Origin: an uncultured virus (IMG/VR IMGVR_UViG_3300020325_000015)
Taxonomy: Duplodnaviria; Heunggongvirae; Uroviricota; Caudoviricetes
IMG/VR virus record: IMGVR_UViG_3300020325_000015
DNA length: 64,000 nucleotides
Direction: 5' to 3' (one strand)
The position numbers were made by a program, and so were the translations under genes. Numbering within the stretch: position 1 is the stretch's first letter; every line of letters starts with the position of its first letter. Positions 39,867 to 61,900 of this stretch are shown here, piece after piece. Below the pieces are notes generated by a model. It made no database searches, was not told the origin of the DNA, and saw nothing but the letters and a program-made list of their open reading frames with translations.

Positions 39867-39869
39867 AAT

Positions 39870-40151: not shown

Positions 40152-40154
40152 AAT

Positions 40155-40760: not shown

Positions 40761-40994
40761 ATGACAAAAGTAAAAAAAGTAAAATTCGATAGAGACGAAG
40801 TATATAATGATTGGATTCAAAATCATGATGATTTAAGTCATGATGAAATATCTGATTATATAGAAAAAATTAAATTCTTATATGAAGAGAGTAATGATGA
40901 AGATTTTAAATTCTTTCAAAATCAAGACCCAATGGAAATTGATGATATGTGGTCAAATTATTGGGAAGGTTACAAAAAATTTATAAATAAATAA
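40761..40994 (+). CDS. acidic early protein
   Basis: 77 aa, Asp/Glu/aromatic-rich. Confidence 0.6.
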   Translation: MTKVKKVKFDRDEVYNDWIQNHDDLSHDEISDYIEKIKFLYEESNDEDFKFFQNQDPMEIDDMWSNYWEGYKKFINK

Positions 40995-40999
40995 AAAAA

Positions 41000-41033
41000 T
41001 ACGTTACAAATGAAATCAACATTCGATAATAAT
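41000..41033 (+). promoter_or_regulatory. promoter-like motif, copy 3
   Basis: TACGTTAC-N17-GATAATAAT. Confidence 0.7.
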
Positions 41034-41206
41034 ATAAAAGATAAAAAGTTGAAACAAAAAATAATTAATTTGTTAGCAATTGAAAAAATTAAATATAGTT
41101 TAAATAATTTTAAAAATTGCTATACACAACATCAACCGAAATCGATTCAAAAATACTTTTCAAATGAACTGGAAAGAATTGATAAAGAATTAAATAAAAT
41201 AAAAAT

Positions 41207-41521
41207 ATGATAGTAAAAAGAAATGATTTTAATAGATTAATAATAAATGACTTTATGTCAGGTTCTTTACCTAATGGATATGAAAAACATTTAAATGGTA
41301 AATTTGTATATGAATTAGAAAAAGAATTTGATGGTACAAAAGTTTGTTACATTAAAACTTCAATGGGTGTAGAAAAAATATATCTTCAGGATAAAGATGA
41401 TATAGACTACAGTGTTGAAAGAATAAATGAAACAATTGAAAATCTAGATGAAATATATCAAGATGAAAAAGAAATAGATGAGTATTGTTTAAATAATCCT
41501 TGGACATACTCAGGAACATAA
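41207..41521 (+). CDS. early hypothetical protein
   Basis: 104 aa. Confidence 0.6.
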   Translation: MIVKRNDFNRLIINDFMSGSLPNGYEKHLNGKFVYELEKEFDGTKVCYIKTSMGVEKIYLQDKDDIDYSVERINETIENLDEIYQDEKEIDEYCLNNPWTYSGT

Positions 41522-41817
41522 TAATAAATAAATTAAATAAAATGAGAAAAGTAATAAATAATATAAAATTAGAAACATTAATAACAATAATTGGTAGTTT
41601 AATATTTATACCAATGTGGATTTTTACAATTATTGGTTTAATAAACGAATATGTAATATGAATAATAGTATTGTAAATATAATAGAATATGTAATTCAAA
41701 ATTATGAACATTTGAATTCAGTTGAAATGTGTCAAATCATACTTAATAAATATGATATTGAAATAACTGATGACATAGTTGATTACATTGTAGAACATAA
41801 TAAATTAAATAAAGTAA

Positions 41818-42234
41818 ATGAGTAAAATAGAAAATTGTATTGGTAGTGGAGTTAAAATAACTCAAGTTGAATTCAACATTGGTCTTAATGGTCATATGTA
41901 TACTGAAAATGGTGTTGCAACTTTATTAAGACAAGCTGGGTTTAAAATATATGACGATGCTTATTTTGTAGACAATGGTAAGTATTTAGGAAATGATGAA
42001 CCAACTTTTGTAGGTTTGACTTCAATAATTGCTTCTATAAAAGAAATAAAAGATAAAGTAAAAGATTTATGCGATATATTACAACAAGATTGTATTGCAA
42101 TTCTTATTGATAATTATAAAGGTAAATTAATATATAATAAAAGACATCTAAAGCAAGTACCTAAATTAAAATTTGATTCAGATTTGTTTATAGATGCATA
42201 TAATAAAGATAATTTTAATAAAAATTTTAAATAA
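41818..42234 (+). CDS. SAM lyase (T3 SAMase-like), putative anti-restriction protein
   Basis: GKY...EPTFV...LC...QQDCIAI...GKLIY parallels the T3 SAMase GCY...EEKTV...EQDCVLV...GLVY pattern (from memory). Confidence 0.6.
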   Translation: MSKIENCIGSGVKITQVEFNIGLNGHMYTENGVATLLRQAGFKIYDDAYFVDNGKYLGNDEPTFVGLTSIIASIKEIKDKVKDLCDILQQDCIAILIDNYKGKLIYNKRHLKQVPKLKFDSDLFIDAYNKDNFNKNFK

Positions 42235-42500
42235 TGAAAGATAAAAAATATATAACAGTTCTTGATTCAGAAAAAAGTAAAGTTTTTCAATATGAATTAA
42301 TAGAATGGTTTAAAAATACTGAAGATGCTGAACAATTTTTAGATGATAAAGGTCATAATATGACAAATTGTCAGTGGATGGAAACAAATGGTGAGATTAT
42401 AACTTTTAATCATAGCGATGATGTATTTGATTATGGTTATAAAAGAAATTTAGATAGATATGATATTAATACCGATGGAACAAGAGAAATCGTTGGATGA
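42234..42500 (+). CDS. early hypothetical protein
   Basis: 88 aa; YITVLD...V.QY...GH...NCQWM. Confidence 0.6.
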   Translation: MKDKKYITVLDSEKSKVFQYELIEWFKNTEDAEQFLDDKGHNMTNCQWMETNGEIITFNHSDDVFDYGYKRNLDRYDINTDGTREIVG

Positions 42501-42610
42501 TAACTGGTGCTATTATTGTAATAGCAAATATACATTAATAAAAACATCTAAAAACCATTATTTATGTATGAGTTGCGGATGTATAACTAAAACAAAATAA
42601 TTATGAAAAA

Positions 42611-42644
42611 TACGTTACAAACTAATATTGATGACGATAATATA
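42611..42644 (+). promoter_or_regulatory. promoter-like motif, copy 4
   Basis: TACGTTAC-N17-GATAATATA. Confidence 0.75.
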
Positions 42645-42838
42645 AGTAAAGAAATAATAAATATGTTTAACGAATTAGAAGTTGAAGATATAAATGAAAT
42701 AAATAAATTAAAAAATGTTTAATAAAGTAGAAAAAGAATTATTGACCGATATATTGCAAAATGCAATTAATAGCGATGACTATAAAAACTATGGGCCAGT
42801 AATAAAAAATATATACTATAAACTAAATTTAAAATAAT

Positions 42839-43033
42839 ATGAATAAATTTTGTAGATGTGGTTCAGTACTACACCCCGTAAGAATAGAATTAGGTTATAA
42901 TAAATGTGTGCAATGCTCTGACATTCAGCAAGTTAGTTATGTACCTATAATAGAACATAAAACTGGTAATAGTATTCAAATCGTATCGCAAGAATTAAGT
43001 AACTTAGTACATAAATCATGGCGAAGAAAATAA
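42839..43033 (+). CDS. DksA/TraR-type C4 zinc-finger protein
   Basis: CRCG..LHPVRIELGYNKCVQC. Confidence 0.55.
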   Translation: MNKFCRCGSVLHPVRIELGYNKCVQCSDIQQVSYVPIIEHKTGNSIQIVSQELSNLVHKSWRRK

Positions 43034-43048
43034 ATTTGCTATACATAA

Positions 43049-43082
43049 TACGTTACAAATTAAAATTAAAAACGATAATATA
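43049..43082 (+). promoter_or_regulatory. promoter-like motif, copy 5
   Basis: TACGTTAC-N17-GATAATATA upstream of ATG 43099. Confidence 0.75.
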
Positions 43083-43098
43083 ATAAAATTAAATAAAT

Positions 43099-43335
43099 AT
43101 GAATAAAATAGACTTAAAAAATTATGCAGATATAATAGATTTAAAAAATAATGTTGAACAACATATAGATACATTCTCAGTTGAATATGCTATTGAAAAA
43201 GTATATCCTAAACTTATGAAATCTAAAAAGTTTTCAGTTCAAAATGTAATTGACTATATGACAATCAAAATTATGGAATTAGATTCTAAAAAAGAATGGT
43301 TAAAAGATGAAATAGATGAAGAGTACGTTGATTAA
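43099..43335 (+). CDS. hypothetical protein
   Basis: 78 aa. Confidence 0.55.
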   Translation: MNKIDLKNYADIIDLKNNVEQHIDTFSVEYAIEKVYPKLMKSKKFSVQNVIDYMTIKIMELDSKKEWLKDEIDEEYVD

Positions 43336-43426
43336 AAAAAAGAAAAAATAAAAAAAATGTTCTATTAAAAATGTCAAAAGAACAAATTGAATTGTTTGAA
43401 ATAGAATATTGGAAACGATATAATAT

Positions 43427-43500
43427 TGCGCGGTAGAGCAGATGGTCAGCTCGCGAGTCTCATAAACTCGAGGTCGGTGGTTCGAGTCCACCCCGCGCAT
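43427..43500 (+). tRNA. tRNA-Met (CAT)
   Basis: acceptor TGCGCGG/CCGCGCA, D stem GAGC/GCTC, anticodon arm CGAGT-CTCATAA-ACTCG, T arm GGTGG-TTCGAGT-CCACC; no encoded CCA. Confidence 0.92.
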
Positions 43501-43504
43501 CTAT

Positions 43505-43691
43505 TGAAAACGAATATACCTGAACGCGGTACAATTTAAAATACCAATGCAATCAAACCGTCGTTTTCATATTGGAGGTAGTCAGGAAGCTAAGAACAGT
43601 CACAGCTTGAAATAATAGTGTACGACTGAGACGCGAAAGATGATATAAACAGTTATGCAATTGCATATCATTCCTAGTTTCATCCGCCTCC
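43505..43691 (+). ncRNA. two candidate structured RNAs between the tRNAs
   Basis: closing stems TGAAAACGA/TCGTTTTCA and GGAGGT/GCCTCC with internal hairpins. Confidence 0.45.
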
Positions 43692-43695
43692 TTAT

Positions 43696-43768
43696 GCGAA
43701 AATAGCTCAATTGGCAGAGCATTAGATTTCCAATCTAAAGGTTGTGGGTTCGATTCCCACTTTTCGCT
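43696..43768 (+). tRNA. tRNA-Gly (TCC)
   Basis: acceptor GCGAAAA/TTTTCGC with U73, anticodon arm TTAGA-TTTCCAA-TCTAA, T arm GTGGG-TTCGATT-CCCAC. Confidence 0.92.
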
Positions 43769-43788
43769 CTAACTTTAAATTAAATAAA

Positions 43789-44121
43789 ATGGATTATATA
43801 AATAAATTAGAAAAATACTTAAGCAACAAATATGATAGTATTGTTGTAATTAAAGACGATTTGAGTAACCCCGACTTAGAATTATCTGAGTGGTATACTG
43901 CTGATGATTATACATTATATGTTATGACAAACGACGCTAGAAACATTGATTGGGAAAATGATGTATATTATTATGAACCTCAATTTGATACTATTATGGA
44001 TAGAATAGAAGAAACATGTCACGATTTAGGTTATGGCAGTGAAGTAAGAATATATGTGGATGCTGAATCTTATTTGCCTGAACAAGAAGTAATTGAATGG
44101 CTAGAACAAAAAGAAGATTAA
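43789..44121 (+). CDS. highly acidic protein (start MDYINK)
   Basis: the ORF-track GTG start lies inside the tRNA; ATG at 43789. Confidence 0.6.
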   Translation: MDYINKLEKYLSNKYDSIVVIKDDLSNPDLELSEWYTADDYTLYVMTNDARNIDWENDVYYYEPQFDTIMDRIEETCHDLGYGSEVRIYVDAESYLPEQEVIEWLEQKED

Positions 44122-46132: not shown

Positions 46133-46918
46133 ATGAAAAATTTTAATAAAAAAATATATTCATTAAATATTTCAACGCTTGAAAAAGTTAAGCAATCTAA
46201 TACAGATATTCCATTTGAATATTATAAGATGGCATTAAATATAGCTAATAGTTTTTCTAAAGATTATGGTGCTGTAGGTGTTGTTGATTTAAATGATTTA
46301 ACCCAAGAAGGTTATTTAGCTTTGTTAATATCATGGCGTAATATAAAATGGAATATAGTCAACGACATCAAGGATAAACTTGAAAAGCAAAAGACTATTT
46401 CTAAATATCTTAAAAAAAGTATTACTGGTATTCTTAAAGATAGAATAAAGGTTAATGCTGATGGCACTAAAAGACCTATTAAAGGTATATGGAGTAATGA
46501 GGAACAAAAGAAAATAACGGGTGGTTTTGGATATATAACAAAACTATTTCCACATTGGTTTGATACATCTATTATCAATATGGTCGATGAAGAGGTTTAT
46601 GAATATAGTTATGATAAATTAGGTGAGTATTTAGATAGCTGGTCTAAAAAGTATTTACCTAAACATCATTTAATGTTAAAAATGTTTTTTGGTTTAGATG
46701 ATGTTTATTCTAAGCCTAAAAAAATGATTGATATTGCTAATTATTTTGGTATAAAAGTTGAGAATGTTAGAAAACAAAAGCAGCGTATATTAGCTAAGTT
46801 AAAATCTAATGAGCTGGCTTTAAAAGAGTTAGCACACTTCGTTGCTATACACGGAATAAAAAGCTCTTCACAAGTTCATTTATATGCTGAAAAACATTTA
46901 AAGATTTATCAAAATTAA
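46133..46918 (+). CDS. sigma70-family RNA polymerase sigma factor
   Basis: region 2 DLNDLTQEGYLAL; region 4 FGL...DIANYFGIKVENVRKQKQRILAKLK. Confidence 0.75.
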   Translation: MKNFNKKIYSLNISTLEKVKQSNTDIPFEYYKMALNIANSFSKDYGAVGVVDLNDLTQEGYLALLISWRNIKWNIVNDIKDKLEKQKTISKYLKKSITGILKDRIKVNADGTKRPIKGIWSNEEQKKITGGFGYITKLFPHWFDTSIINMVDEEVYEYSYDKLGEYLDSWSKKYLPKHHLMLKMFFGLDDVYSKPKKMIDIANYFGIKVENVRKQKQRILAKLKSNELALKELAHFVAIHGIKSSSQVHLYAEKHLKIYQN

Positions 46919-48891: not shown

Positions 48892-49212
48892 ATGGCAAGT
48901 ATTATATCTGGTAATATAAATTTATCTAAAATAAATAAAGATAAAATTTATGAAGGCAAAAAGGGTAAATACTATCCAGTTACCGTCGTTATAAATAACG
49001 AGGTTGGTGAATATGGTGATTCAGGCTATATAATGACTGAACAAACTAAAGATGAAAGAGATGCAAGTATACCTAAGGAATATTTAGGTAACGTTAAAGT
49101 CATATGGACAGACGGCCAAAATGTTGATACAACTAATAAAAATGTTGCATCACCGGCACCTGCTGCAAATACTTTTGAGTCTAAGTCTAACGAACCAGAT
49201 TTACCATTCTAA
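48892..49212 (+). CDS. single-stranded DNA-binding protein
   Basis: OB-like body and acidic C-terminal tip DLPF. Confidence 0.7.
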   Translation: MASIISGNINLSKINKDKIYEGKKGKYYPVTVVINNEVGEYGDSGYIMTEQTKDERDASIPKEYLGNVKVIWTDGQNVDTTNKNVASPAPAANTFESKSNEPDLPF

Positions 49213-50921
49213 TGAACAAAACCGAGATTAATGGTTTTCAGATTGATACATTCAATCAATATAAATTAGAGGTTGGCAAGCGAGAGGGTATATGCCCTCT
49301 TTGCTCTGCTAATCGTAAACCACAAAATCGTAAAGCTAAATGTGCTATGTACGATTGGGATAGAGGTCTTGGTACATGTATGAATTGTAATGAAGTATTT
49401 CAATTACATACGTTCAAAAGAAAAGGTGGTAACGATAAAGTTTATACTAAGCCTAAAACAATAGCCAATCCACTTTTAAGTAATAAAGTAATTAAGTGGT
49501 TTGAGAGTAGAGGTATATCAAATAATACTTTAGTAAAGATGAAAATTACTGAAGGTAAAGAATGGATGCCTCAAACTGGAAAAGAAGAGAATACAATACA
49601 ATTCAATTACTTTATTAACAATGAATTAATTAACATAAAGTATAGAGATGGTAAGAAAAATTTTAAACTGGTTAAAGGAGCCGAAAAGATCTTCTACAAT
49701 ATTGATTCTACTATTGGTCACGAGTATGTGGTTATTGTGGAAGGAGAGATTGATGCTTTATCTCTTGTTGAGGTGGGCGTCAAATCTGTCATTAGTGTAC
49801 CAAACGGAGCTACAGTTAGCAACAATAACCTTGACTACTTGGACAGCTGCATCGATTATCTCGATGGAAAAGAAAAAATCATTATCGCAGTTGATCAAGA
49901 TGAGGCAGGAGAAAATCTTAAGCAAGAACTTATTCGGAGACTCGGAGCTGAGGCGTGTTATACGGTGGACTTCGGAATTCACAAAGACGCTAATGATTTT
50001 CTGTTACACAACAGCAGCGCTAAGCTCAATGATGTTATTAAAAACGCTAGCCCTGTTCCTATTGAAAACGTAGTAACGTTAAATGATATTGATGATGAGC
50101 TGCAGGAATTTATTCATGAAGGATTCAAACCTGGTTATCAAATTGGTCTTGATAATTTTGATAATATATTTTCAACTTATACAGGTCAGTTTATTACAGT
50201 AACAGGTGTACCAAGTTCAGGTAAATCTGATTTTGTAGATAGAATGATTGTTGGTTATCAACAAAAGTATGGCTGGAAAACAGCATTTGCATCTCCAGAA
50301 AATAAACCTACATTCTTACATGCACATAAGCTAATGCGTAAGATTGGTAATTGGATGCCAAATAAAACTGATATAGGTTCAGATAAATGGAATGAAGTTG
50401 CAAATATTGTAAATGATAATTTCTTTTTCATTGAAAATGAAAGATATGATTTAGATTCTGTATTGAATAAAGGAGCGCAGCTCGTTAAAAGAAAAGGTAT
50501 TAAATGTTTAGTTATAGATCCATATAATAAAATTAAAATGAATGGAGCTGCTAGCATGAGTATACCTGATGCAACTATGGAATATTTAACTCGTATAGAA
50601 GCATTTGCTAAAAAGTTTGATGTACTTGTTATTGTAGTTGCACACCCAACTAAAATGTATAAAAAAGAAGATGGTACAATTGATGAACCAAATATGTACA
50701 ACATTAAAGGTGGCGGTGAATGGTATGATGCTTCATATCATGGCTTACTTGTTCATCGCGATTATAATAAAAAAACCGTCAAAGTTAAGGTGCTTAAAGT
50801 AAAGTTTCAAAACTTAGGTGAAAACCAAGCTGAAGCTCATTTTAAATGGGATCATATTAGTGGAAACTATATACCTGTATTTGATGTATCAAATGATATT
50901 ATGCCATGGGAAGCGGATTAA
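49212..50921 (+). CDS. primase-helicase (T7 gp4/Twinkle-like)
   Basis: Zn finger CPLC...CMNC, TOPRIM EGEIDALS/DQD.AG, Walker A GVPSSGKS, VIDPYN, VAHP. Confidence 0.92.
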   Translation: MNKTEINGFQIDTFNQYKLEVGKREGICPLCSANRKPQNRKAKCAMYDWDRGLGTCMNCNEVFQLHTFKRKGGNDKVYTKPKTIANPLLSNKVIKWFESRGISNNTLVKMKITEGKEWMPQTGKEENTIQFNYFINNELINIKYRDGKKNFKLVKGAEKIFYNIDSTIGHEYVVIVEGEIDALSLVEVGVKSVISVPNGATVSNNNLDYLDSCIDYLDGKEKIIIAVDQDEAGENLKQELIRRLGAEACYTVDFGIHKDANDFLLHNSSAKLNDVIKNASPVPIENVVTLNDIDDELQEFIHEGFKPGYQIGLDNFDNIFSTYTGQFITVTGVPSSGKSDFVDRMIVGYQQKYGWKTAFASPENKPTFLHAHKLMRKIGNWMPNKTDIGSDKWNEVANIVNDNFFFIENERYDLDSVLNKGAQLVKRKGIKCLVIDPYNKIKMNGAASMSIPDATMEYLTRIEAFAKKFDVLVIVVAHPTKMYKKEDGTIDEPNMYNIKGGGEWYDASYHGLLVHRDYNKKTVKVKVLKVKFQNLGENQAEAHFKWDHISGNYIPVFDVSNDIMPWEAD

Positions 50922-51199
50922 CAGGTTCTAAAAAGAAAGATGCATATAAAATGCCACCGCATAATGCATCTAATGAACAAATGAAATGGCAAAAATATTG
51001 TATAGATAATAATATAAGAATATCACCTTATGGTATTAATAATGAACCGGGTAAATGGAAAATAGCAATTGCATTAGGCTCATATAAAAAAGGTGAAAAA
51101 ATATATTATGCGCCAAATGTATATGATAAATATTCTATTTGGTCTGAATATTATGAAATGTGTAAATACTATTATGATAAACATACAAGACGAATATAG
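50906..51199 (+). CDS. hypothetical protein
   Basis: 97 aa. Confidence 0.6.
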   Translation: MGSGLTGSKKKDAYKMPPHNASNEQMKWQKYCIDNNIRISPYGINNEPGKWKIAIALGSYKKGEKIYYAPNVYDKYSIWSEYYEMCKYYYDKHTRRI

Positions 51200-51989
51200 A
51201 AGCTTATTAGCTGGTGTATTATATAACGGTAAAGATAAGGAAGATCGAACAGGTACTGGTACTAGATCAGTATTTGGTAGAATGATAAAACACGATATGG
51301 CCTTAGGCTTTCCACTATTAACAACTAAAAAAATATATTTTAAACATGCAGTTACGGAATTATTATGGATTCTTCAAGGCCGTACTGATATGCATTACTT
51401 GCAGTCAAACGGTGTTAATTACTGGAATCCTGATTATGAAAGATCAGGTAGATCTGATGGTACGCTTGGTCCTGTTTACGGCAAGCAGCTTAGGGACTTC
51501 AATGGCGTTGATCAGCTTAAAAGAATACTCATCCAAATTAAAAACAACCCAAGCTCGCGGCGCATTATGGCAAGCTTATGGAATCCCAACGATTTGGCTG
51601 ATATGGTGTTGCCACCTTGCCACTATGGCTTTCAAGTATATATAAATGATGGCAAACTTAATCTTATGTGGCAGCAACGATCAGTTGATGTATTTCTTGG
51701 TTTACCTTATGATATTGCAATGTACGGTTTATTACTTCAGTTGTTGGCTGAAGGATCTGAATATGCTAAAGGCCAACTTATCGGTTGCTTTGGTGATTGT
51801 CATTTGTATAATAACCATATTGATCAAGCCAAACAACAATTGGATAATGATTTTAGGGAATTGGCTAGGGTTGATTCTTCTTGTGGAATTAGTATTATTA
51901 ATGAAGAAGTAATATTACCTGAAGCAAATATGATTAAATTAATAAACTATAATCCTCATCCACCAATTAAAGCAAAATTAAATACTTAA
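51174..51989 (+). CDS. thymidylate synthase-family enzyme with Asn-to-Asp specificity change, candidate dCMP methylase
   Basis: DRTGTGT, ELLW, GPVYG, SRR, LPPCH, QRSVDVFLGLPYD, HLY; likely start MINIQ at 51174. Confidence 0.85.
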   Translation: MINIQDEYRSLLAGVLYNGKDKEDRTGTGTRSVFGRMIKHDMALGFPLLTTKKIYFKHAVTELLWILQGRTDMHYLQSNGVNYWNPDYERSGRSDGTLGPVYGKQLRDFNGVDQLKRILIQIKNNPSSRRIMASLWNPNDLADMVLPPCHYGFQVYINDGKLNLMWQQRSVDVFLGLPYDIAMYGLLLQLLAEGSEYAKGQLIGCFGDCHLYNNHIDQAKQQLDNDFRELARVDSSCGISIINEEVILPEANMIKLINYNPHPPIKAKLNT

Positions 51990-51991
51990 AT

Positions 51992-52321
51992 ATGAAAAAA
52001 CTATTATTACTATTACTATTACCAATATTTGCATATTCGCAAATGGAACAAATATTATCAAGGCCTATATTTTTACATGATGGCACTGAAGCTACACTAA
52101 TAAGTTCTGATTTACCTTATGGTACTATAATACAAACAGGAGTTATTATAGATAGAATAAATGCACCTGATGATATAAGTGCTATAAATGATTATAACTT
52201 TTATAGAGATGAATCTTATTTTAATTGGAATTCATTATTCAGTAATGAAATTGGTAAAGGTGTAATAAAAACTAGAAGTGGACAATATTATTTAATTAAC
52301 TTATATGGAGACAATTATTAA
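51992..52321 (+). CDS. secreted/periplasmic protein
   Basis: signal peptide MKKLLLLLLLPIFAYS|Q. Confidence 0.6.
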   Translation: MKKLLLLLLLPIFAYSQMEQILSRPIFLHDGTEATLISSDLPYGTIIQTGVIIDRINAPDDISAINDYNFYRDESYFNWNSLFSNEIGKGVIKTRSGQYYLINLYGDNY

Positions 52322-53069
52322 AAGCGGTAAATATAAAATATATCATATACCAGGAGTTAAGATTGGTTGTACAACTAATGTTAAAAAACGTGTTGAAGAA
52401 GAGCAAGGTTATAAACCTGGTGAATACGATATACTGTATGAAACAGATGATATAGTAGAAGCTTCTGAAGCTGAAAGAAATTTGCAAAAAGAACTTAAAT
52501 ATAAACCAGATATTAAATTATATAAAGATTTATTCCGTAAAAAAATGAATAAGCATAGCTCATCACAAGCAACAACAACATTTAAAATATCACCTAATGA
52601 TATTAATGCTGAATACTTAAGAGGTATTACACTAGAATTACCTGAAGGTACATTTGAATTAAATAATGAAGATTATATTGATTGGATATTAACTAATGTA
52701 CATGCAAGCCAGTTTGGGCCCGGTACGTGTTATATTTACAATAAAGCTTTTACTAAAGCATTTAAACCTAATGGCACATCAGCATTTAATAAAATAAGAG
52801 ATTGGGCTAAAGATCGTAACCTTTATCAAAAAGGTGATAGCAAGACTCAATATGTTAAATTAATGGAAGAAGCAGGAGAACTTGCACAAGCATTATTAAA
52901 ACAAGATAAAGCTGAAATAAAAGATGCTATTGGCGATATGGTAATAGTACTTGCTAATCTTTCAGAGCTTGAAGGATTTAAGATTGAGGATTGCATTAAC
53001 GATTCATTCAATGTAATATCAAATAGAACAGGTAAAATGGTTAACGGAACATTCGTAAAAGATGAGTAA
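52305..53069 (+). CDS. fusion of an N-terminal GIY-YIG-like domain and a C-terminal MazG-like NTP pyrophosphatase
   Basis: YKIYHIPGVKIGCT.N..KR...E; KLMEEAGEL...EIKDAIGD. Confidence 0.7.
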   Translation: METIIKSGKYKIYHIPGVKIGCTTNVKKRVEEEQGYKPGEYDILYETDDIVEASEAERNLQKELKYKPDIKLYKDLFRKKMNKHSSSQATTTFKISPNDINAEYLRGITLELPEGTFELNNEDYIDWILTNVHASQFGPGTCYIYNKAFTKAFKPNGTSAFNKIRDWAKDRNLYQKGDSKTQYVKLMEEAGELAQALLKQDKAEIKDAIGDMVIVLANLSELEGFKIEDCINDSFNVISNRTGKMVNGTFVKDE

Positions 53070-53313
53070 AATAAACGATAAAATAATTAATCGCGTAATT
53101 GATAAGATTCAAAAGCGTGCTGAAGCAGGTTATAAAAAGTATGGTGTTGGTTTAGATAAAGACGAACAATCACTTGATACTTGGCTTAATCATTTACAAG
53201 AAGAACTTATGGATGCTGCTAACTATATTGAAAAAATTAGAGCTGTATTAATTGAAGAAGATAAAAAGATAAGTAAATATCCTGAGTCTAGCTGGACACA
53301 GAGCACTACATGA
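53062..53313 (+). CDS. small all-alpha NTP pyrophosphohydrolase-like protein
   Basis: R...G.KKYG...WLNHLQEELMDAANY. Confidence 0.55.
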   Translation: MSKINDKIINRVIDKIQKRAEAGYKKYGVGLDKDEQSLDTWLNHLQEELMDAANYIEKIRAVLIEEDKKISKYPESSWTQSTT

Positions 53314-53762
53314 GAAGAAGTAAAAAGAGAGGCCCTGTACAAGCTAAAAAAATATCTTATGATGGGATTAAGTTTGCATCGGGCCTTGAAAGATATACTT
53401 ACATAGCTTTAAAAAAAAATAAATTGTTTGAAGGATATGAAAGCGAAACATTTGAATTAATAAATTCATTTCAATTTCCTAATACAAGTTATGAAAAGCA
53501 AGCTAATGGTAAAGGAGAATATATAAATAGAGGTACTAAAAAAATATTAGGTATAAAATATACACCTGATTTTATTGGTAAAGATTATATAATAGAATGT
53601 AAAGGAAGACCAAACGAATCTTTTCCTTTGCGCTGGAAATTATTTAAATTATGGCTCACGAAAAACAATATTGGAAAGATACTTTACAAGCCGCAAAATC
53701 AGAAGGAAGTGGATTTGACGATAACATTGATCAAAGAATCGAGAAAAAGAAAGCGCGGTTAA
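53310..53762 (+). CDS. T7 endonuclease I-like Holliday junction resolvase
   Basis: FASGLE, YTPDF, IECKG. Confidence 0.75.
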   Translation: MRRSKKRGPVQAKKISYDGIKFASGLERYTYIALKKNKLFEGYESETFELINSFQFPNTSYEKQANGKGEYINRGTKKILGIKYTPDFIGKDYIIECKGRPNESFPLRWKLFKLWLTKNNIGKILYKPQNQKEVDLTITLIKESRKRKRG

Positions 53763-54206
53763 TGTACACTAAAAGATTATTAGAAAAAGAAATTAAAAAA
53801 TTACTTAAAAATAAAATTATTAAATATGGAGAAATTGTTAGATTGCACAGAAAATACGGCGTTCAGTCTACAGGAACACTATAGCGAAAGAATATCTTTC
53901 CATATGAAAATGTTAAATTATTATTTAAATGAAAATAGCAGGGTGGGAAGTTAGTTTAGGTTTATATCCAGGTATTGTTATAGGTGTAAGAAGCTATCCG
54001 GAAAAAGATTTTATAGAGCATGTATTTTATTTACCACTTATAGAACTATGTATAACAGTGCATTATGAATGAAGAAGCTTTAGAAGCATACGCTAGGAAA
54101 CGGTATCCTAGAATATTTAAAAATAAACCTGTTATTATAACAGAGGAAGAAAATTTTATTACAATTAAATATAACAAGGACTCAAGTCCTATAATACTTA
54201 GTAAAG

Positions 54207-54422: not shown

Positions 54423-54615
54423 GCTAATAGAAATGCGCAATAGAATTGAAACCATAGGAGCTGCAATGAATAGAGTTGTACAAGAACTTACTCATTTAAA
54501 AGATTTAAGTATTGGTACAATGGAATTAGTTAAGAAGCTACCTGGTTATGATAAAGCATTAGATGAATTAAAAGAACAATATAAGAAAAAGAAAACAGAT
54601 GAGTCTATTCAATGA
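54409..54615 (+). CDS. hypothetical coiled-coil protein
   Basis: 68 aa. Confidence 0.55.
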   Translation: MKEAKLIEMRNRIETIGAAMNRVVQELTHLKDLSIGTMELVKKLPGYDKALDELKEQYKKKKTDESIQ

Positions 54616-55567
54616 AAGAATACCTTATAAACCTTTTGAATATCCGGAATATTATACAGAAGGTTGGCTTAAACAAGCACAAGCTTTTTGGCTTCACACA
54701 GAGATACCAATGTCAGGTGACGTCAAAGATTGGAATGAAAAACTTACCAAGGCAGAGAAGAACTTGGTTGGAAATATACTTTTGGGATTTGCACAAACGG
54801 AGTGTGCGGTTTCTGATTATTGGACCCAAAAAGTTGTATCGTGGTTTCCTAAACATGAAATCCAACAAATGGCCATGATGTTTGGCTCACAAGAAACAAT
54901 TCACGCAGTAGCATATTCTTATTTAAATGAAACACTCGGACTCGAAAATTTCGAAGCATTCTTACACGAACCCGCCACGGCCCAGCGCTTCGATAATCTT
55001 GTTAGTTACTCTGGTAACGACCCTATTGGGATTGGCAGGTCTCTCGCTGTATTTTCTGCATTTGCAGAAGGCGTTAGTCTCTATTCCGCTTTTGCTGTGC
55101 TATATAGTTTTCAGTTGCGTAATTTGCTCAAAGGCATTGGCCAACAGATGAAATGGAGTGTAAGGGATGAGTCATTACATTCTAAAATGGGATGTCAACT
55201 ATTTAGGCATATGTGCCAAGAAATTAAAGGATTACAAAATGATTGCTATACACACGTTATTAAAGCAGCAAAAACAATGCTTAAAGCAGAGGAAAGATAC
55301 ATTGATAAAATGTTTGAACAAGGAGACATTGAAAACCTCAGTGCATACGACCTTAAACAATTTATCAGAAAACGTCTCAACGAAAAAATTGTTGAACTCG
55401 GTTACTCAAACAGTGGGGCCTACTTTGAATACGACAAAGTTGCAGCGAGCAATCTTGACTGGTTCTACCATCTTACCGGGGGGCACACTCATACTGATTT
55501 CTTTGCTGTTCGTCCGACTGATTACTCAAAAGCTAACGAAGGAGAAGATTTTGAAGATATTTGGTAG
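54599..55567 (+). CDS. nrdB: ribonucleotide reductase class I beta subunit
   Basis: ETIHAVAY, EGVSL, RDESLH di-metal ligands; DFF..RPTDYSK. Confidence 0.93.
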   Translation: MSLFNERIPYKPFEYPEYYTEGWLKQAQAFWLHTEIPMSGDVKDWNEKLTKAEKNLVGNILLGFAQTECAVSDYWTQKVVSWFPKHEIQQMAMMFGSQETIHAVAYSYLNETLGLENFEAFLHEPATAQRFDNLVSYSGNDPIGIGRSLAVFSAFAEGVSLYSAFAVLYSFQLRNLLKGIGQQMKWSVRDESLHSKMGCQLFRHMCQEIKGLQNDCYTHVIKAAKTMLKAEERYIDKMFEQGDIENLSAYDLKQFIRKRLNEKIVELGYSNSGAYFEYDKVAASNLDWFYHLTGGHTHTDFFAVRPTDYSKANEGEDFEDIW

Positions 55568-55924
55568 ATGAGAGTTTGTAATGTTTGTAAGAAAAAGAAA
55601 AAAGATCATAAATTTAAACACGCAGGTAAGAAAACTTGTATACGATGTGAGTTTAGGTGGAAACGATCTTTTATGCGTTTATTAGTTCAAGATAGAAGGC
55701 TTACAGCAAAAGAAAGAATTGCAAATAGATTAGGTTATATGGGTACGGCATTTATTATGATGTCACCATATTTACTAGCATACGAAGGTATAGGTGTTAT
55801 AACTTATATTATAGGTGGAATATTATCTATACCTCAAGTATGGGTTGCGAAACAATGGAACTTAGTATTAGTTAATTTAAATGTATCAATAGGATATTTA
55901 ATATATTATTTAAATGTGGAATAA
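55568..55924 (+). CDS. CxxC-CxxC zinc ribbon fused to a 3-TM PQ-motif membrane domain
   Basis: CNVC...CIRC; GYMGTAF..., SIPQVW..KQWNL. Confidence 0.55.
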   Translation: MRVCNVCKKKKKDHKFKHAGKKTCIRCEFRWKRSFMRLLVQDRRLTAKERIANRLGYMGTAFIMMSPYLLAYEGIGVITYIIGGILSIPQVWVAKQWNLVLVNLNVSIGYLIYYLNVE

Positions 55925-57659
55925 CAATTGGGTTAAAGGTAAAGATTATCCTTCATGGGGTGATAATGATGTTTACAAAAAAACTATATCAGGTGGTTAC
56001 CTTATAAATGGCGAATCACCTCGTGATGCTTACACACGTGTTGCTAAAACTGTAGCAAAACGTTTATATAAACCAGAACTTGCAGATAAATTTTTTGATT
56101 ATATATGGAAAGGATGGTTATGTTTAGCTTCTCCTGTACTTTCTAATACAGGTGCAGACAGAGGTTTACCTATAAGTTGTTTTGGAATAGATGTTGCAGA
56201 TAGTATACAGGATATAGGTAATAAAAATTTAGAAATGATGTTACTTGCAAAACACGGTGGGGGTGTAGGTATCGGAGTTAATATGATTCGTCCTGCCGGT
56301 GCTAAAATTACAGGTAATGGAACTTCAGACGGCGTTGTCCCTTTTTGCAAAATATATGATTCCACTATACTCGCGACCAATCAAGGTTCCGTTAGAAGAG
56401 GAGCTGCAAGTGTTAATATCAATATTGAACACGACGATTTTGAAGAGTGGCTTGAAATTAGAGAACCTAAAGGAGATGTCAATAGACAATCACTTAACTT
56501 GCACCAGTGTGCTGTCGTTGGCGATAAGTTTATGCGAAAGCTTGAACTCGGAGATCCCGAAGCAAGAAAAAGATGGTCAAAGCTTATACAAAAACGTAAA
56601 GCAACTGGAGAACCTTATATCTTATTTAAAGGAAATACAAACAAAGCTAATCCAGAAGCATATAAGAAAAACAGTTTAAAAGTTCATATGACTAATATAT
56701 GCAGTGAAATAGTATTGCATACAGATGAATCACATAGTTTTGTATGTTGCTTATCTTCTGTTAACTTAGATAAATATGATGAATGGAAAAATACAAACCT
56801 TATATATGATTCTACATGGTTTTTAGATGGAGTTCTTGAGGAGTTTATTCAGAAAGCTAAAAACATGAAGGGATTTGAAAATGCAGTAAGATCTGCTGAG
56901 AAAGGAAGAGCTTTAGGTTTAGGTGTACTTGGATGGCATAGCTTATTGCAAAAAAGAGGTATTGCTTATGAAAGTTTATTAGCACAGTTTAAAACACGTG
57001 AAATATTTTCAAAAATAAAAATTGAAACTGAACGTGCATCAAGAGCACTTGCTGAAATATATGGTGAGCCGCTTTGGTGTGTTGGCACAGGATTTAGAAA
57101 TACACATCTTCGCGCTATAGCACCAACTGTAAGTAATTCTAAATTAGCAGGTAATGTGTCACCGGGTATTGAACCTTGGGCTGCAAATGTATTTACAGAA
57201 CAATCTGCTAAAGGCACATTTATTAGAAAAAATAACGAACTTAAAAAAGTATTAAGAAAAATTGGGATTGATAACAAAGATACATGGGATAAGATACTTG
57301 CCGATGGTGGATCTGTTCAAGCAATCGATGCACTTAACGGATGGTTTTTTGACGAAAGATCAAGGCTTACTGAATTACCAGGAGGAGAGCCGGTTAAAAA
57401 CGTGTTCAAAACATTTAAAGAAATAAATCAACTAGAGTTAGTTAGACAAGCAGGTATAAGACAAGATTATATTGATCAATCAGTATCACTTAATCTTGCC
57501 TTTCCTTCTGAAGCTACCCCTCGTTGGATAAATCAAGTACATATGGAGGCGTGGAAGCACGGTATAAAAACCTTGTATTATATGCGTACTGAGTCTGTAC
57601 TGAGAGGTGACATAGCCGCAGCAGCTATGGATCCTAATTGTTTAAGCTGCGATGGTTAA
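55914..57659 (+). CDS. nrdA: ribonucleotide reductase class I alpha subunit (compact, no ATP cone)
   Basis: PISCF, NICSEI, APTVSNS, KTLYYMR, C-terminal CLSC. Confidence 0.95.
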   Translation: MWNNNWVKGKDYPSWGDNDVYKKTISGGYLINGESPRDAYTRVAKTVAKRLYKPELADKFFDYIWKGWLCLASPVLSNTGADRGLPISCFGIDVADSIQDIGNKNLEMMLLAKHGGGVGIGVNMIRPAGAKITGNGTSDGVVPFCKIYDSTILATNQGSVRRGAASVNINIEHDDFEEWLEIREPKGDVNRQSLNLHQCAVVGDKFMRKLELGDPEARKRWSKLIQKRKATGEPYILFKGNTNKANPEAYKKNSLKVHMTNICSEIVLHTDESHSFVCCLSSVNLDKYDEWKNTNLIYDSTWFLDGVLEEFIQKAKNMKGFENAVRSAEKGRALGLGVLGWHSLLQKRGIAYESLLAQFKTREIFSKIKIETERASRALAEIYGEPLWCVGTGFRNTHLRAIAPTVSNSKLAGNVSPGIEPWAANVFTEQSAKGTFIRKNNELKKVLRKIGIDNKDTWDKILADGGSVQAIDALNGWFFDERSRLTELPGGEPVKNVFKTFKEINQLELVRQAGIRQDYIDQSVSLNLAFPSEATPRWINQVHMEAWKHGIKTLYYMRTESVLRGDIAAAAMDPNCLSCDG

Positions 57660-58951: not shown

Positions 58952-61900
58952 TTAACTTACTTTTTGTTCTGCTTTATTAGCTTTTGCTTCCCATGGAAGC
59001 TTTGGATGGCCATCTTCATACTTTTTCCCATTATATATCACATGACCGTTTGTTCTTTTATATTTATTGTTTTTCCAATAAACATAGTCAGCATCATAAT
59101 TTAACTGACCTGATTTCATATCTTTAATATGTTGCTTCTCATGAGCTATTACCTTTTTTCTTTTTTCTTTTGGTAAGCCAGGTTTTATATCAATAGTACC
59201 ATCATTATTGGCTCTACCTAATACACCTTCGGGTAAATTTTTTTGTAAATTAGATCTACCTATTCTTCCTCTTTTTGTTCTTGTAGATATTTTTTTACCT
59301 GTTTGTCTAATATTTCTATTTGATTTTGTTTTATATTTAGGTGTTCTTAACTTAGAAGATTTTAAAAGATATTTTTGTAAAGCTTTTCTTTCTCTTTCTT
59401 GTTCTATTTCTTTATCTTTTAATCCTAAATCCCATTTATTATATCCTAACATTAAGGATATTCTTTGCCATACTTCAGTATCACTATCAACAGATGCTTT
59501 TAAGTTTTCCATTTTTCTTAATGCTCTATCTAAAGGTATATTAGCAACAGCAGATAATGTTTGTGCAGCTGCCATATATGCAGGATTATCTATTGATAAT
59601 GGACCTTCTTCACGCATTTTTTCAAGACTTTGTTTATACGTAAATGCTCTACCAGCAGATTGTAATTTTCTAAGTTTTGAATTAATAGGTGGTGACAATG
59701 TTGTTATCTCATTTGCAACTTTTTCATAGTTAGGTCTGCCACTTTGATATTCATCAATAGCTTTTACAACCATATTTTTAGCAGTAGCTACAGCGGCACC
59801 AGCAACACCAGCACCTCTAAGCAATGTATCTGCAATACCATTAGCAACTCGGCCATATTTTTCTTTTTCTTTTTCATCATCTTCTTCATCATCGAAGAGC
59901 ATTGAAAACATAGCTCCTTGTAATGCTGTAAATATTATATTTTGTACAGCTCCATAATATGCAAGTTTTGACAAATTAGTTTTCCAATCACCTCTGTTAT
60001 TTATTAAGTCTAAGGCTGCTTTTTTAGTCAATCTAGCATATTGCATAGGGGTGTTGGCAAAAGCCAATATAACGCGCCCTAAAGGGCTCGCTTGCTGCAT
60101 TGAAACTCTATCTGGCCGTGAAGATTGTTGAGACTCTTCTGTTATTTCTTTAAAATCAAGAAAAGCTTTTTCTTTTGCTTCAGTTTCAGATAATCCGTCT
60201 TGCTTATATTTATTAATTCTATTTCTATAAAAAGCTGCACCACCTATTGAAATAGCAAAACTATCTGCCATTTGTGTTGGTAAAAATCCTTTTTTAAGAA
60301 TATAAGAAAGAGCGGCACGTACTTTATTTTGTGATGTTTCAGCTGTTCTTGCAATTTCATCTGCATTTACATCTGTTTTTAATCCGGATCTTCTTGATTT
60401 TAAAAAGTCTGAATTAAAAATTTCTGCAAAATCTGACCAATATTGTTTTTGATTAGCAAAAGCTTGTGCTGCTTTTATAGGATTATTATCCGACCAATTT
60501 AAATAATTTACAGATGAAATAGTTTGCAATAATGCAGATCTTGTATTAAAGAACATTATAGTACCAACAGAATCATTAACCCAGTTCATAAATTGATTAG
60601 TTAATTTATTTGCACCTGTCGGTCTATTTCTTCCTGTTTTCATTCTATGTAGCATATCTTGCAAAGCTTCAACATAATTATCCCCGTATAAAGCTCGAAG
60701 TTTATTCATATTTTCTTTGCTATACACAATATCTACATTTTCTTGCCATTTTTCTAAAAACTTTTTTCTAGAAACTGTATTTGTATAATTAACTAAATCA
60801 GTTGTTATAGTTCCAGCAAGCCAATCACCTGTTGGTTCTGGATAACCATCAATAGTTAAACCTTGTATTTGATTTGCAAAAGCAAGTAATTCAGGGTTTG
60901 ATTCAACATGTTTTTTAAGAGCTTTAATGTCTTTTTTAGAAACACCTTCTGGTAATACTTTTTGTTTATCCCAAAGATATAATCTTATAGCATCTTCATT
61001 AGTAAAATCTCTTACAGCTTCTTTATTTAATTTAGCAGGAGTATTTTTAATTTTAGATTTTAAATCTTCCCATGCTTTTAACGCTACAATTTTAGCACTT
61101 TCATAGTTTTTAATACCTTCTGCATATGGATTTATAATGTTTTCTTTATACCATTCTAAATTTTTATCACCTGTTTTACCTTTACCAAGTGTTGGATATA
61201 TAAGGCCCATATAATCTTCAGCTGAATATGGTACAAAGAATTTAAAAGGATTATTCTTTTTACCTAGCTTAGCAGCTCTAGCGTCAGAATATCTAGCTTT
61301 AGAATCAACACCTTTAACTTCTTGAAGTATATCGTTAAAATCATCACTTAAACTTTGAGAGGCTTTTACTGACGATTCTGAAAGCTGGCCTGATTCATTT
61401 ACACTATAAGTTTCAGCAATAGTTTTACCATTTAATAATTTAATTTTTGTAGGATCTATACCATCGTCAAATAAAGCAACAGTGGGATTAAGGTATCTTT
61501 CAAGCCAACTGTTTTGAAATACTTTCCAGCCCTCGGGCATAGTTCTTTGATAACCAGCATTTGTAAGTTTTACGTCATCTGCTTTATCTAAAGCTAATAA
61601 TTTAAAATTATTTACAACAGCTGCATAATCTAAATTAAAATTTCTACTAGTATCTAAAATACTATCTAATAAATACATATAAGCACCCGTTTGAGGCATA
61701 GCATGCTCCCATTCAATTAATTTAAATTTACCTTTATCAGTTGTAAATCCAACTGGCTTAGTGCTATATCCTACAAATTGTGCACCTAATCTATTAGGGT
61801 GATTATCATTACTAGCAGATAATTTCATATATTGCGCAACTGTTATTGCGGCATTTGTTTTTTTATCTCCTTCAAGACTATTAATATATTTATCTAGTCT

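What the first reader, a model, noticed from the sequence alone, without database searches (positions are those of the whole stretch)
51174..51989. Thymidylate synthase homologue has the Asn-to-Asp switch of dCMP-modifying enzymes
Seen: the motif reads QRSVDVFLGLPYDIAMY (GAT at 51711-51713), where canonical ThyA has RSxDxxLGxPFNI. The catalytic Cys (PPCH) and the E, W, Y, RR and HxY residues are retained. Established: this Asn (E. coli N177, L. casei N229) selects dUMP; Asp at this site is found in T4 dCMP hydroxymethylase and shifts TS toward dCMP methylation. Inference: the enzyme makes 5-methyl-dCMP (or hm-dCMP), so the phage DNA may carry modified cytosine. Automatic annotation would simply call it thyA.
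Basis: partly seen in the sequence, partly recalled or inferred. Interest (0 to 1): 0.9.

Follow-up and report, generated by a model that had tools for sequence, protein, structure and literature searches.

The report
Phage thymidylate synthase turned cytosine methylase
A marine phage carries a thymidylate-synthase-like enzyme whose base-selecting residue is switched from Asn to Asp, so it most likely methylates dCMP and lets the phage build 5-methylcytosine DNA, a trick already known from other phages.

Summary
ORF 51174-51989 (+, 271 aa) is a full-length ThyA-family protein (Pfam PF00303, E 7e-85; 45% identical to E. coli ThyA). Its Asp180 (GAT 51711-51713) aligns with E. coli Asn177. The Asp is not a one-off: it is invariant in 120 of 120 closest database homologues, 80 of 80 IMG/VR loci and 10 of 10 clade contigs in MAGs.

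Published diagnostic residues point to a methyl product. Leu143, Asp169, His147, the G-P-V-Y segment and the full C-terminal tail are all kept. This speaks against a hydroxymethylase or a 5-hydroxy-dCMP synthase.

The gene sits in a conserved module: primase-helicase, TS, a three-domain GIY-YIG-like/MazG pyrophosphatase, then ribonucleotide reductase. The Xp12 group also places an NTP pyrophosphatase next to its TS.

No dCMP deaminase, DNA polymerase or P-loop kinase was found, so the steps after 5-methyl-dCMP are inferred.

The principle is already in print (eLife 2021; bioRxiv 2024; NAR 2026). This is therefore a new member of a known kind, in an uncultured marine lineage that is probably flavobacterial. 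No data on the DNA itself could be obtained. Interest is moderate.

The parts
51174..51989 (+). ThyA-family enzyme with Asp at the E. coli N177 position; predicted dCMP C5-methyltransferase (5-methyl-dCMP synthase), 271 aa
   Evidence: Pfam PF00303 E 7e-85; best solved relatives are canonical TS; 45% identity to E. coli ThyA
51711..51713 (+). GAT, Asp180, equivalent to E. coli Asn177 (the base-selecting residue)
   Evidence: invariant in 120 of 120 homologues and 80 of 80 loci
51609..51623 (+). Codons for L146-P-P-C149-H150, equivalent to E. coli L143, C146 (nucleophile) and H147; Leu rather than Asp/Glu at Cys-3
   Evidence: LPPCH in 80 of 80 loci
51687..51689 (+). GAT, Asp172, equivalent to E. 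coli Asp169 (Asn here would mark 5-hydroxy-dCMP synthases)
   Evidence: rule from PMC13326640 section 28
51957..51986 (+). C-terminal tail (HPPIKAKLNT), same length as in E. coli ThyA; absent from T4 dCMP hydroxymethylase
   Evidence: role of the tail from PMC6400193 passages
52305..53069 (+). Conserved three-domain protein: GIY-YIG/T5orf172-like N-terminus (residues ~9-71), unknown middle domain, C-terminal MazG-type NTP pyrophosphatase (residues ~155-254); proposed dCTP pyrophosphatase
   Evidence: Pfam MazG 6e-7, T5orf172 1.2e-6; PHROG MazG-like 9e-32; fold 1vmg Z 9.6; I-TevI Z 5.4; downstream of the TS in 80 of 80 loci, full length in 79
53062..53313 (+). Small conserved ORF (83 aa), function unknown, part of the conserved gene row
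   Evidence: present in 76 of 80 loci; only PHROGs of unknown function; no named family
50906..51199 (+). Small conserved ORF (97 aa) overlapping the TS start by 26 bases, function unknown
   Evidence: a 47-locus family at the same place; no family match
51992..52321 (+). Accessory ORF (109 aa, hydrophobic N-terminus) inserted between the TS and the MazG gene; absent from close variants
   Evidence: contigs of runs X5, X6 and X15 join 51985 to 52326 with 18 other letters between; no family
54599..55567 (+). Ribonucleotide reductase small subunit (dNDP supply)
   Evidence: PF00268 E 4e-56; 66 of 80 loci
55914..57659 (+). Ribonucleotide reductase large subunit
   Evidence: PF02867 E 9e-91; 50 of 80 loci
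49212..50921 (+). Primase-helicase just upstream; the only replisome enzyme found, and no DNA polymerase gene
   Evidence: Toprim/DnaB_C; phrog_239 E 7e-85; 78 of 80 loci

Best explanation
The ORF encodes a homodimer-type, folate-dependent thymidylate-synthase-fold enzyme that has been re-aimed from dUMP to dCMP by Asp at the N177 position. It most likely performs the full TS reaction on dCMP. Cys149 attacks C6, the methylene of CH2-THF is transferred to C5, and a hydride from the cofactor then gives 5-methyl-dCMP and dihydrofolate. In the phage it works as part of a conserved row of genes. Ribonucleotide reductase supplies deoxynucleotides. The MazG-type domain of the neighbouring protein is proposed to hydrolyse dCTP to dCMP, which both removes the competing dCTP and feeds the methylase. 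Host kinases and the host polymerase, primed by the phage primase-helicase, then put 5-methyl-dCTP into phage DNA. The result would be 5-methylcytosine in place of much or all cytosine, which blunts restriction by the host. Shown here: the fold, the alignment of the Asp, its invariance, the retained methylase-type residues, and the conserved gene neighbourhood. Inferred: substrate, product, the MazG substrate, all steps after 5-methyl-dCMP, and the state of the virion DNA.
For: (1) Family and alignment: PF00303 E 7e-85. Asp180 lies in the N177 column.

(2) Purifying selection: Asp in 120 of 120 homologues, 80 of 80 IMG/VR loci and 10 of 10 MAG contigs. The chromosomal ThyA sequences I read in the same scan have G-V-P-F-N: 5 of 5 checked, out of 70 such loci fetched.

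(3) Published rule for the substrate: Asn to Asp at 177 switches TS from dUMP to dCMP and yields 5mdCMP, and Asp predominates in TS genes of cytosine-modified metavirome contigs (PMC8670742 section 11).

(4) Published tests: 5 of 7 natural N177D homologues and the Xp12 enzyme made 5mdC in E. coli (bioRxiv 10.1101/2024.12.05.627091 passages).

(5) Product: Leu at Cys-3, G-P-V-Y rather than S-x-Y, Asp169 kept and a full C-terminal tail. This is measured against the hydroxymethylase signature (PMC6400193) and the D169N mark of 5-hydroxy-dCMP synthases (PMC13326640 section 28).

(6) Context: a MazG-type pyrophosphatase lies downstream in 80 of 80 loci (fold Z 9.6). Xp12 likewise has a PRA-PH pyrophosphatase next to its TS, and PRA-PH is among the five domains most often found near deaminases in modified contigs.

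(7) It is the only TS-family gene among 62 ORFs scanned.
Against: No activity or DNA-modification data exist for this clade. All sequencing runs that hold it are served as assembled contigs.

The window and its relatives lack several parts of the Xp12-type pathway. There is no dCMP deaminase and no PolA (0 of 5 near-complete relatives; none among 62 window ORFs). There is no P-loop kinase and no DHFR. Phosphorylation of 5mdCMP and its incorporation must therefore fall to host enzymes, which is untested. The published E. coli assays co-expressed the T4 dNMP kinase.

Two of the 7 tested N177D homologues gave no 5mdC.

The folate-site region differs from canonical TS: I79Y, a four-residue insertion where W83 lies, F176Y and S180M. 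W83 is said to control solvent access, so a hydroxymethyl product is not excluded.

The Leu143 rule is only a correlation. By my alignment Xp12, a known methylase, has Asn there.
Confidence: 0.6

Rival explanations
1. It is a dCMP hydroxymethylase. The exocyclic methylene intermediate is captured by water, giving 5-hydroxymethyl-dCMP and THF, as with T4 gp42.
For: Asp at the N177 position is shared with T4 gp42. The W83 position is not conserved, and I79 is replaced by Tyr in the folate site. W83 is reported to control solvent access, and T4 has Val there (PMC6400193 passage).
Against: The published signature is not met. Leu, not Asp/Glu, lies three residues before the Cys. Pro, not Ser, lies two before the Tyr. 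The C-terminal tail that seals the TS active site is present in full. No glycosyltransferase or other hydroxymethyl-decorating enzyme appeared among 62 ORFs. Identity is 22% for T4 gp42 against E. coli ThyA, whereas ours is 45% to E. coli ThyA.
Confidence: 0.1
2. It is still an ordinary thymidylate synthase. The Asp is tolerated, and the enzyme supplies dTMP for an AT-rich genome.
For: It is 45% identical to E. coli ThyA with all other catalytic residues. It passes the TIGR03284 equivalog cut-off. It sits next to ribonucleotide reductase like many phage nucleotide-metabolism genes. Window G+C is 23-37%. Two of 7 tested N177D homologues made no 5mdC.
Against: Asp is invariant in the clade, while Asn is found in 134 of the 150 best representatives. 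The Asn-to-Asp change is reported to switch substrate preference to dCMP. Clade-specific co-changes at F176Y, I79Y and S180M suggest an adapted pocket rather than drift.
Confidence: 0.1
3. It makes 5-methyl-dCMP, but mainly as a route to thymidine nucleotides. Deamination of the methylated cytosine nucleotide by a host or unrecognised enzyme would yield thymidine nucleotides, so the DNA stays largely unmodified.
For: In Xp12-type phages a deaminase converts 5mdCTP to dTTP, so the TS homologue feeds both pools (bioRxiv discussion passage). The genome is AT-rich. No second TS or ThyX was found.
Against: No deaminase of PF00383 is present in the window or in 0 of 5 near-complete relatives. The direct dUMP route with an Asn enzyme would be simpler. 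The linked pyrophosphatase fits pool exclusion as in T4 and Xp12.
Confidence: 0.12
4. It is a flavin-dependent 5-hydroxy-dCMP synthase like RB69 gp48.
For: It has Asp at the N177 position and belongs to the TS family.
Against: The diagnostic D169N change is absent: Asp is kept in the window and in 80 of 80 loci (rule). Those enzymes also carry Glu at position 143, whereas Leu is found here. No glycosyltransferases were found.
Confidence: 0.02

Closest known systems
Xanthomonas phage Xp12 TS homologue (dCMP methyltransferase; QNN97214.1 in MT664984)
   Same: TS fold. Asp at the N177 position and Tyr at 176 (G-L-P-Y-D in both). Asp169 is kept. An all-alpha NTP pyrophosphatase gene lies next to it, and ribonucleotide reductase is in the genome. 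Xp12 DNA has 5mC in place of all C, and its enzyme made 5mdC in E. coli.
   Different: Only 28% identity in the search of the Xp12 record. In the tree Xp12 lies outside all ThyA-like sequences. Xp12 has Pro at 147, Asn at 143 and a shorter C-terminus. Its module also has DHFR and a dCMP-deaminase-family gene, and its relative AXL1 has DNA polymerase I. None of these was found here.
Engineered E. coli N177D and L. casei N229D thymidylate synthases
   Same: An otherwise canonical ThyA scaffold with the single specificity switch. They are reported to prefer dCMP and give 5mdCMP (cited in PMC8670742 section 11). Ours is 45% identical to E. coli ThyA.
   Different: Ours is a natural enzyme under long-term selection, with further clade-specific changes: F62I, I79Y, F176Y, S180M and an insertion at W83. 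The kinetic details of the mutants are recalled, not read here.
N177D TS homologues of cytosine-modified metavirome contigs (MetaGPA, NEB)
   Same: The same diagnostic residue and the same inference. They are associated with PRA-PH/MazG-type genes, and 5 of 7 tested made 5mdC.
   Different: Those chosen for testing were linked to a dCMP-deaminase-family gene, and this clade has none. Whether any tested enzyme belongs to this clade cannot be told, because the preprint's supplements are closed.
T4 gp42 dCMP hydroxymethylase
   Same: Asp at the base-selecting position, catalytic Cys and Glu, and dCMP as substrate. In T4 a dCTPase (gp56) feeds it (annotation).
   Different: T4 has Asp at Cys-3, S-x-Y, and no C-terminal tail. 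Ours has Leu, P-V-Y and a full tail.
RB69 gp48 / DLP3 gp80 5-hydroxy-dCMP synthases
   Same: TS homologues with Asp at N177 that act on dCMP.
   Different: They carry D169N and L143E and use a flavin and O2. Ours keeps Asp169 and Leu143.

Membership tests
Thymidylate synthase ThyA fold family (Pfam PF00303) | Significant full-length match to the family profile | tested here: met
   E 7e-85, residues 7-269 on profile positions 2-264 of 266
Thymidylate synthase ThyA fold family (Pfam PF00303) | Catalytic Cys (E. coli C146) with phosphate-binding Arg residues and E58, Y94, H207, Y209 | tested here: met
   Invariant columns of alignment A1
Canonical dUMP-methylating thymidylate synthase (EC 2.1.1.45) | Asn at E. 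coli position 177 that selects uracil | tested here: not met
   Asp180 in that column; Asn in 134 of 150 representatives
Canonical dUMP-methylating thymidylate synthase (EC 2.1.1.45) | dTMP formation from dUMP; complementation of thyA | not testable with these tools
   Needs an enzyme assay or genetics
Phage dCMP C5-methyltransferase (Xp12 type, functional class) | Asp at the N177 position in an intact TS active site | tested here: met
   invariant in the clade
Phage dCMP C5-methyltransferase (Xp12 type, functional class) | No hydroxymethylase or hydroxylase marks: not Asp/Glu at Cys-3, Asp169 kept | tested here: met
   Leu146 and Asp172; rules
Phage dCMP C5-methyltransferase (Xp12 type, functional class) | Neighbouring NTP pyrophosphatase (dCTP removal) | tested here: met
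   MazG-domain protein downstream in 80 of 80 loci; its substrate is unknown
Phage dCMP C5-methyltransferase (Xp12 type, functional class) | Linked dCMP-deaminase-family gene (5mdCTP to dTTP) | tested here: not met
   None among 62 window ORFs; 0 of 5 near-complete relatives
Phage dCMP C5-methyltransferase (Xp12 type, functional class) | 5-methyl-dCMP as product; 5mC in virion DNA | not testable with these tools
   Only assembled contigs of metagenomes are available
dCMP hydroxymethylase (T4 gp42 type) | Asp or Glu three residues before the catalytic Cys | tested here: not met
   Leu146 here; LPPCH in 80 of 80 loci; signature
dCMP hydroxymethylase (T4 gp42 type) | Ser two residues before the catalytic Tyr (S-x-Y) | tested here: not met
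   G-P-V-Y here, against I-N-S-N-Y in T4
dCMP hydroxymethylase (T4 gp42 type) | Lacks the C-terminal tail of TS | tested here: not met
   Tail present, same length as in E. coli
5-hydroxy-dCMP synthase (RB69 gp48 type) | Asn at E. coli position 169 | tested here: not met
   Asp172 here; RS.D in 80 of 80 loci; rule
MazG / all-alpha NTP pyrophosphohydrolase (neighbour 52305-53069, C-terminal domain) | Profile match and four-helix NTP-PPase fold | tested here: met
   PF03819 E 6e-7; 1vmg Z 9.6, rmsd 2.4 over 81 residues; 7ody Z 9.4
GIY-YIG nuclease superfamily (neighbour 52305-53069, N-terminal domain) | GIY-YIG fold with conserved Tyr/Arg/Glu | tested here: inconclusive
   T5orf172 E 1.2e-6. I-TevI Z 5.4, PD-T4-3 Z 5.0, UvrC Z 4.2 and T4 EndoII Z 3.8, all low. 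Y13, R29 and E57 are invariant

The most novel reading that the evidence does not exclude
A phage lineage with no DNA polymerase, nucleotide kinase or deaminase of its own nevertheless replaces cytosine by 5-methylcytosine with a minimal two-gene cassette. The cassette is a ThyA-derived dCMP methylase plus a single fusion protein. That protein would unite a dCTP pyrophosphatase with a GIY-YIG nuclease that destroys unmodified, cytosine-containing DNA, so the roles of T4 gp56 and EndoII would be joined in one chain. The host replisome and host kinases would be left to do the rest.
Probability: 0.15. Interest if true: 0.6.

Novelty: new member of a known kind. Interest (0 to 1): 0.4.

Why it matters
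If the prediction holds, a widespread group of uncultured marine phages carries 5-methylcytosine DNA. The group comprises 172 IMG/VR contigs and occurs in metagenomes of at least nine studies beyond the likely source. That would affect how these phages meet restriction and type IV defence systems. It would also affect how marine viromes behave in methylation-sensitive protocols, and how 'thyA' auxiliary genes are counted in ocean surveys, where this gene is annotated as thymidylate synthase. The enzyme is unusually close to canonical ThyA. It is therefore a natural experiment on how few changes re-aim TS to cytosine, and a possible reagent for making 5mdCMP. It does not reveal a new principle.

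Tried and rejected
- **Near DNA search:** megablast of 50000-54000 against deposited phages found nothing.
- **TS in deposited phages:** the best TS matches were canonical enzymes at no more than 45% identity.
- **TS in relatives by portal similarity:** 0 of 6 have any TS (MW202828, Maribacter Panino, Flavobacterium elemoA, Cellulophaga phi38:1 and phi19:3, Tenacibaculum Gundel_1). The Xp12 control did ring. No cultured stand-in with known DNA chemistry exists.
- **Deaminase and PolA in related genomes:** PF00383 and PF00476 gave 0 of 5 each. PolB, DHFR, ThyX and C5-methyltransferase families were not searched there; they are only absent from the Pfam scan of 62 window ORFs.
- **MazG protein against the Xp12 pyrophosphatase:** no significant BLAST similarity (E 0.31). 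The likeness is at domain-family level only.
- **Small ORF 53062-53313:** no family, solved relative or named Atlas cluster.
- **Middle domain of the MazG protein (residues ~82-156):** nothing above Z 3.0.
- **Sequencing runs:** only Logan contigs, so no base-modification signal, strand or level can be read. Contigs of two RNA libraries overlap the TS gene, but this does not show transcription.
- **Natural variants:** none of the 40 listed differences falls on 51711-51713, but 161 more were not shown.
- **Structure of the TS itself:** not predicted. Both jobs went to the neighbour, so which residue fills the W83 site is unresolved.
- **Literature:** five searches found no paper on this marine clade. 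Subscription journals are outside the library, and bioRxiv supplements are closed.
Full report
**Observation**

The window is phage DNA. It holds a P22-like portal, a protein with a crAss muzzle-like domain, tail proteins, a GroEL-like chaperonin, DNA ligase, Erf, a primase-helicase and ribonucleotide reductase.

ORF 51174-51989 (+) gives 271 residues. It matches Pfam Thymidylat_synt over its whole length (E 7e-85). Its nearest solved relatives are ordinary thymidylate synthases (6auj E 1.5e-71; E. coli entries about 1e-62).

In the HMMER alignments and in a MAFFT alignment with E. coli ThyA taken from NC_000913, Asp180 stands in the column of Asn177. T4 gp42 and the Xp12 TS homologue have Asp in the same column. 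E58, W80, Y94, R126, R127, C146, R166, S167, D169, H207 and Y209 are all kept.

**Is it more than chance?**

- The 120 best of 8000 scored homologues (63-93% identity) all carry Asp, within the motif L-G-L-P-Y-D.
- A scan of IMG/VR found 172 relatives. The 80 loci kept all read G-L-P-Y-D, L-P-P-C-H and R-S-x-D.
- In the genome collection, 10 contigs of MAGs belong to the clade. All carry Asp and the same phage gene order.
- The remaining 70 loci of that scan are at most 48% identical. The five that I read are chromosomal ThyA with G-V-P-F-N.
- An exhaustive search of cluster representatives gave, among the best 150 (40-54% identity), 134 with Asn, 15 with Asp and 1 with Ser.
- In a FastTree tree of these sequences, the window's clade is one tight group beside a few other Asp forms. 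Further Asp forms lie scattered among Asn enzymes. Deep nodes of that tree are not reliable, but the picture is one of repeated Asn-to-Asp switches on a canonical ThyA scaffold.

**What the enzyme most likely does**

The literature held here gives residue rules.

- *Substrate.* Asn to Asp at 177 changes the preference from dUMP to dCMP and yields 5mdCMP. In metaviromes, TS genes of cytosine-modified contigs mostly have Asp, and those of unmodified contigs mostly have Asn (PMC8670742, section 11 read).
- *Hydroxymethylase marks.* These enzymes have Asp or Glu three residues before the catalytic Cys and an S-x-Y segment, and they lack the C-terminal tail that seals the TS active site (PMC6400193, passages).
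- *5-hydroxy-dCMP synthase marks.* These enzymes carry D169N and L143E (PMC13326640, sections 24 and 28 read).

The window's protein has Leu at Cys-3, G-P-V-Y, Asp at 169, His at 147, and a tail of the same length as in E. coli. By these rules it is a dCMP methylase that should release dihydrofolate.

Five of seven natural N177D homologues, and the Xp12 enzyme, made 5mdC when expressed in E. coli with the T4 dNMP kinase (bioRxiv 10.1101/2024.12.05.627091, passages).

There are caveats. The clade differs from Asn-type enzymes at otherwise conserved positions: F62I, I79Y, F176Y and S180M. It also has a four-residue insertion where W83 lies. W83 is said to control solvent access. The Leu143 rule is a correlation, and Xp12 has Asn there by my alignment. 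I could not model the TS, so which residue fills the W83 site is open.

**Surroundings**

The gene order is primase-helicase, a small ORF, TS, a 254-residue protein, a small ORF, a DUF1064 resolvase-like protein, then ribonucleotide reductase. Across the 80 loci the counts are:

| Gene | Loci with it (of 80) |
|---|---|
| Primase-helicase | 78 |
| TS | 80 |
| 254-residue protein | 80 |
| Small ORF 53062-53313 | 76 |
| DUF1064 protein | 79 |
| RNR small subunit | 66 |
| RNR large subunit | 50 |

Loci cut short by contig ends lower the last figures.

The 254-residue protein keeps its full three-part length in 79 of 80 loci.

- Its C-terminal part is a MazG-type NTP pyrophosphatase. This rests on Pfam (E 6e-7), PHROGs (E 9e-32), and a predicted fold with mean pLDDT 87 that matches 1vmg at Z 9.6 and the cyanophage S-2L MazG-like enzyme at Z 9.4.
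- Its N-terminal 70 residues match T5orf172 (E 1.2e-6). They weakly resemble GIY-YIG nucleases: I-TevI Z 5.4, a 5hmC-specific endonuclease Z 5.0, UvrC Z 4.2 and T4 EndoII Z 3.8. Tyr, Arg and Glu are invariant there.
- The middle part has no match.

In Xp12 the TS homologue also lies next to a PRA-PH-type pyrophosphatase, with a dCMP-deaminase-family gene and DHFR on its other side. The AXL1 paper describes the same row (passages).

The ORF between the TS and the MazG gene (51992-52321) is an insertion. Contigs of three runs join 51985 to 52326 without it, and in L001 the two genes abut.

**What is missing**

- The Pfam scan of 62 ORFs found no dCMP deaminase, DNA polymerase, DHFR, second TS, ThyX, DNA methyltransferase or glycosyltransferase.
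- Five related IMG/VR genomes, four of them at least 94% complete by CheckV, have no PF00383 or PF00476 match.
- Only the primase-helicase has a Walker A motif.

The steps from 5mdCMP to DNA must therefore use host kinases and the host polymerase. This is plausible but untested, and it is the weakest link in the claim that the virion DNA is modified.

**Whose phage**

The window comes from marine metagenomes. Fourteen runs hold at least half of the sampled words, four of them possibly from the source sample, and 14 studies are listed in all.

Portal and primase-helicase relatives are phages of Flavobacterium, Cellulophaga, Maribacter and Tenacibaculum at 29-50% identity. Five of the 10 MAG contigs are labelled Flavobacteriaceae, Flavobacteriales or Bacteroidetes; binning of phage contigs is unreliable. 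None of six deposited relatives has a TS gene. The cassette is thus a trait of this uncultured lineage.

**Comparison and novelty**

In function it should work like the Xp12 dCMP methyltransferase and like the engineered N177D/N229D enzymes. By descent it is a separate, much more ThyA-like lineage: 45% identical to E. coli ThyA, against 28% for Xp12.

Reading Asp177 as a mark of cytosine-modifying TS homologues is established and has been used to mine IMG/VR. Five literature searches found no account of this marine clade. I could not see the supplements of the preprint, which may list tested enzymes of this kind.

**Verdict**

This is a real feature, correctly read by the first stage. It is a new member of a known kind. 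Interest is moderate (0.4). The fused GIY-YIG-like/MazG partner and the absence of a phage polymerase, kinase and deaminase are the parts most worth an experiment.

Noticed in passing
window 52305-53069: A conserved three-domain protein sits next to the TS. It has a T5orf172/GIY-YIG-like N-terminus with invariant Tyr, Arg and Glu, a middle domain of unknown fold, and a C-terminal MazG domain. It may unite nuclease and dCTPase roles that T4 keeps in separate proteins.
   Followed up: partly
window 51992-52321: A 109-aa ORF with a hydrophobic N-terminus is inserted between the TS and the MazG gene. Close natural variants in three runs lack it, with a joint from 51985 to 52326.
   Followed up: partly
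window 50906-51199: A 97-aa ORF overlaps the TS start by 26 bases. It belongs to a family found at the same place in 47 related loci and matches no known family. It may be translationally coupled to the TS.
   Followed up: partly
window 58952-64000 (-): A giant open frame of at least 1682 aa runs off the window's end. It has no Pfam family. Relatives of its C-terminal 1237 aa occur in 42 of 80 loci. It may be an internal or ejected virion protein.
   Followed up: no
window 33464-35044 (-): A phage-encoded GroEL-type chaperonin (Cpn60_TCP1, E 2e-56).
   Followed up: no
window 21787-22389 (-): A 2OG-Fe(II) oxygenase (PF13759, TIGR02466 family) lies among late genes. It is not of the TET/JBP family, and a link to base modification was not tested.
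   Followed up: no
window 38000-44000: The coding strand switches near 37-39 kb. Next comes a very AT-rich stretch (G+C 22.5% at 40001-44000) packed with small ORFs, and the GC skew changes sign. This is possibly the early region or the origin of replication.
   Followed up: no
window 46133-46918: A 261-aa ORF weakly resembles an RNA polymerase sigma factor (phrog_351 E 2e-7; Sigma70 regions at E about 0.06). It is present in 37 of 80 loci.
   Followed up: no
whole window and loci L001, L005, L012, L033, L071: No DNA polymerase gene was found: none among 62 window ORFs, and PolA in 0 of 5 related genomes. Only a primase-helicase is present, so the lineage seems to rely on the host polymerase.
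   Followed up: partly
window 3561-7967 (-): A 1468-aa protein carries a crAss-type muzzle C-terminal domain (E 7e-7). It hints at a distant structural link between these flavobacterial podophages and crAss-like phages.
   Followed up: no
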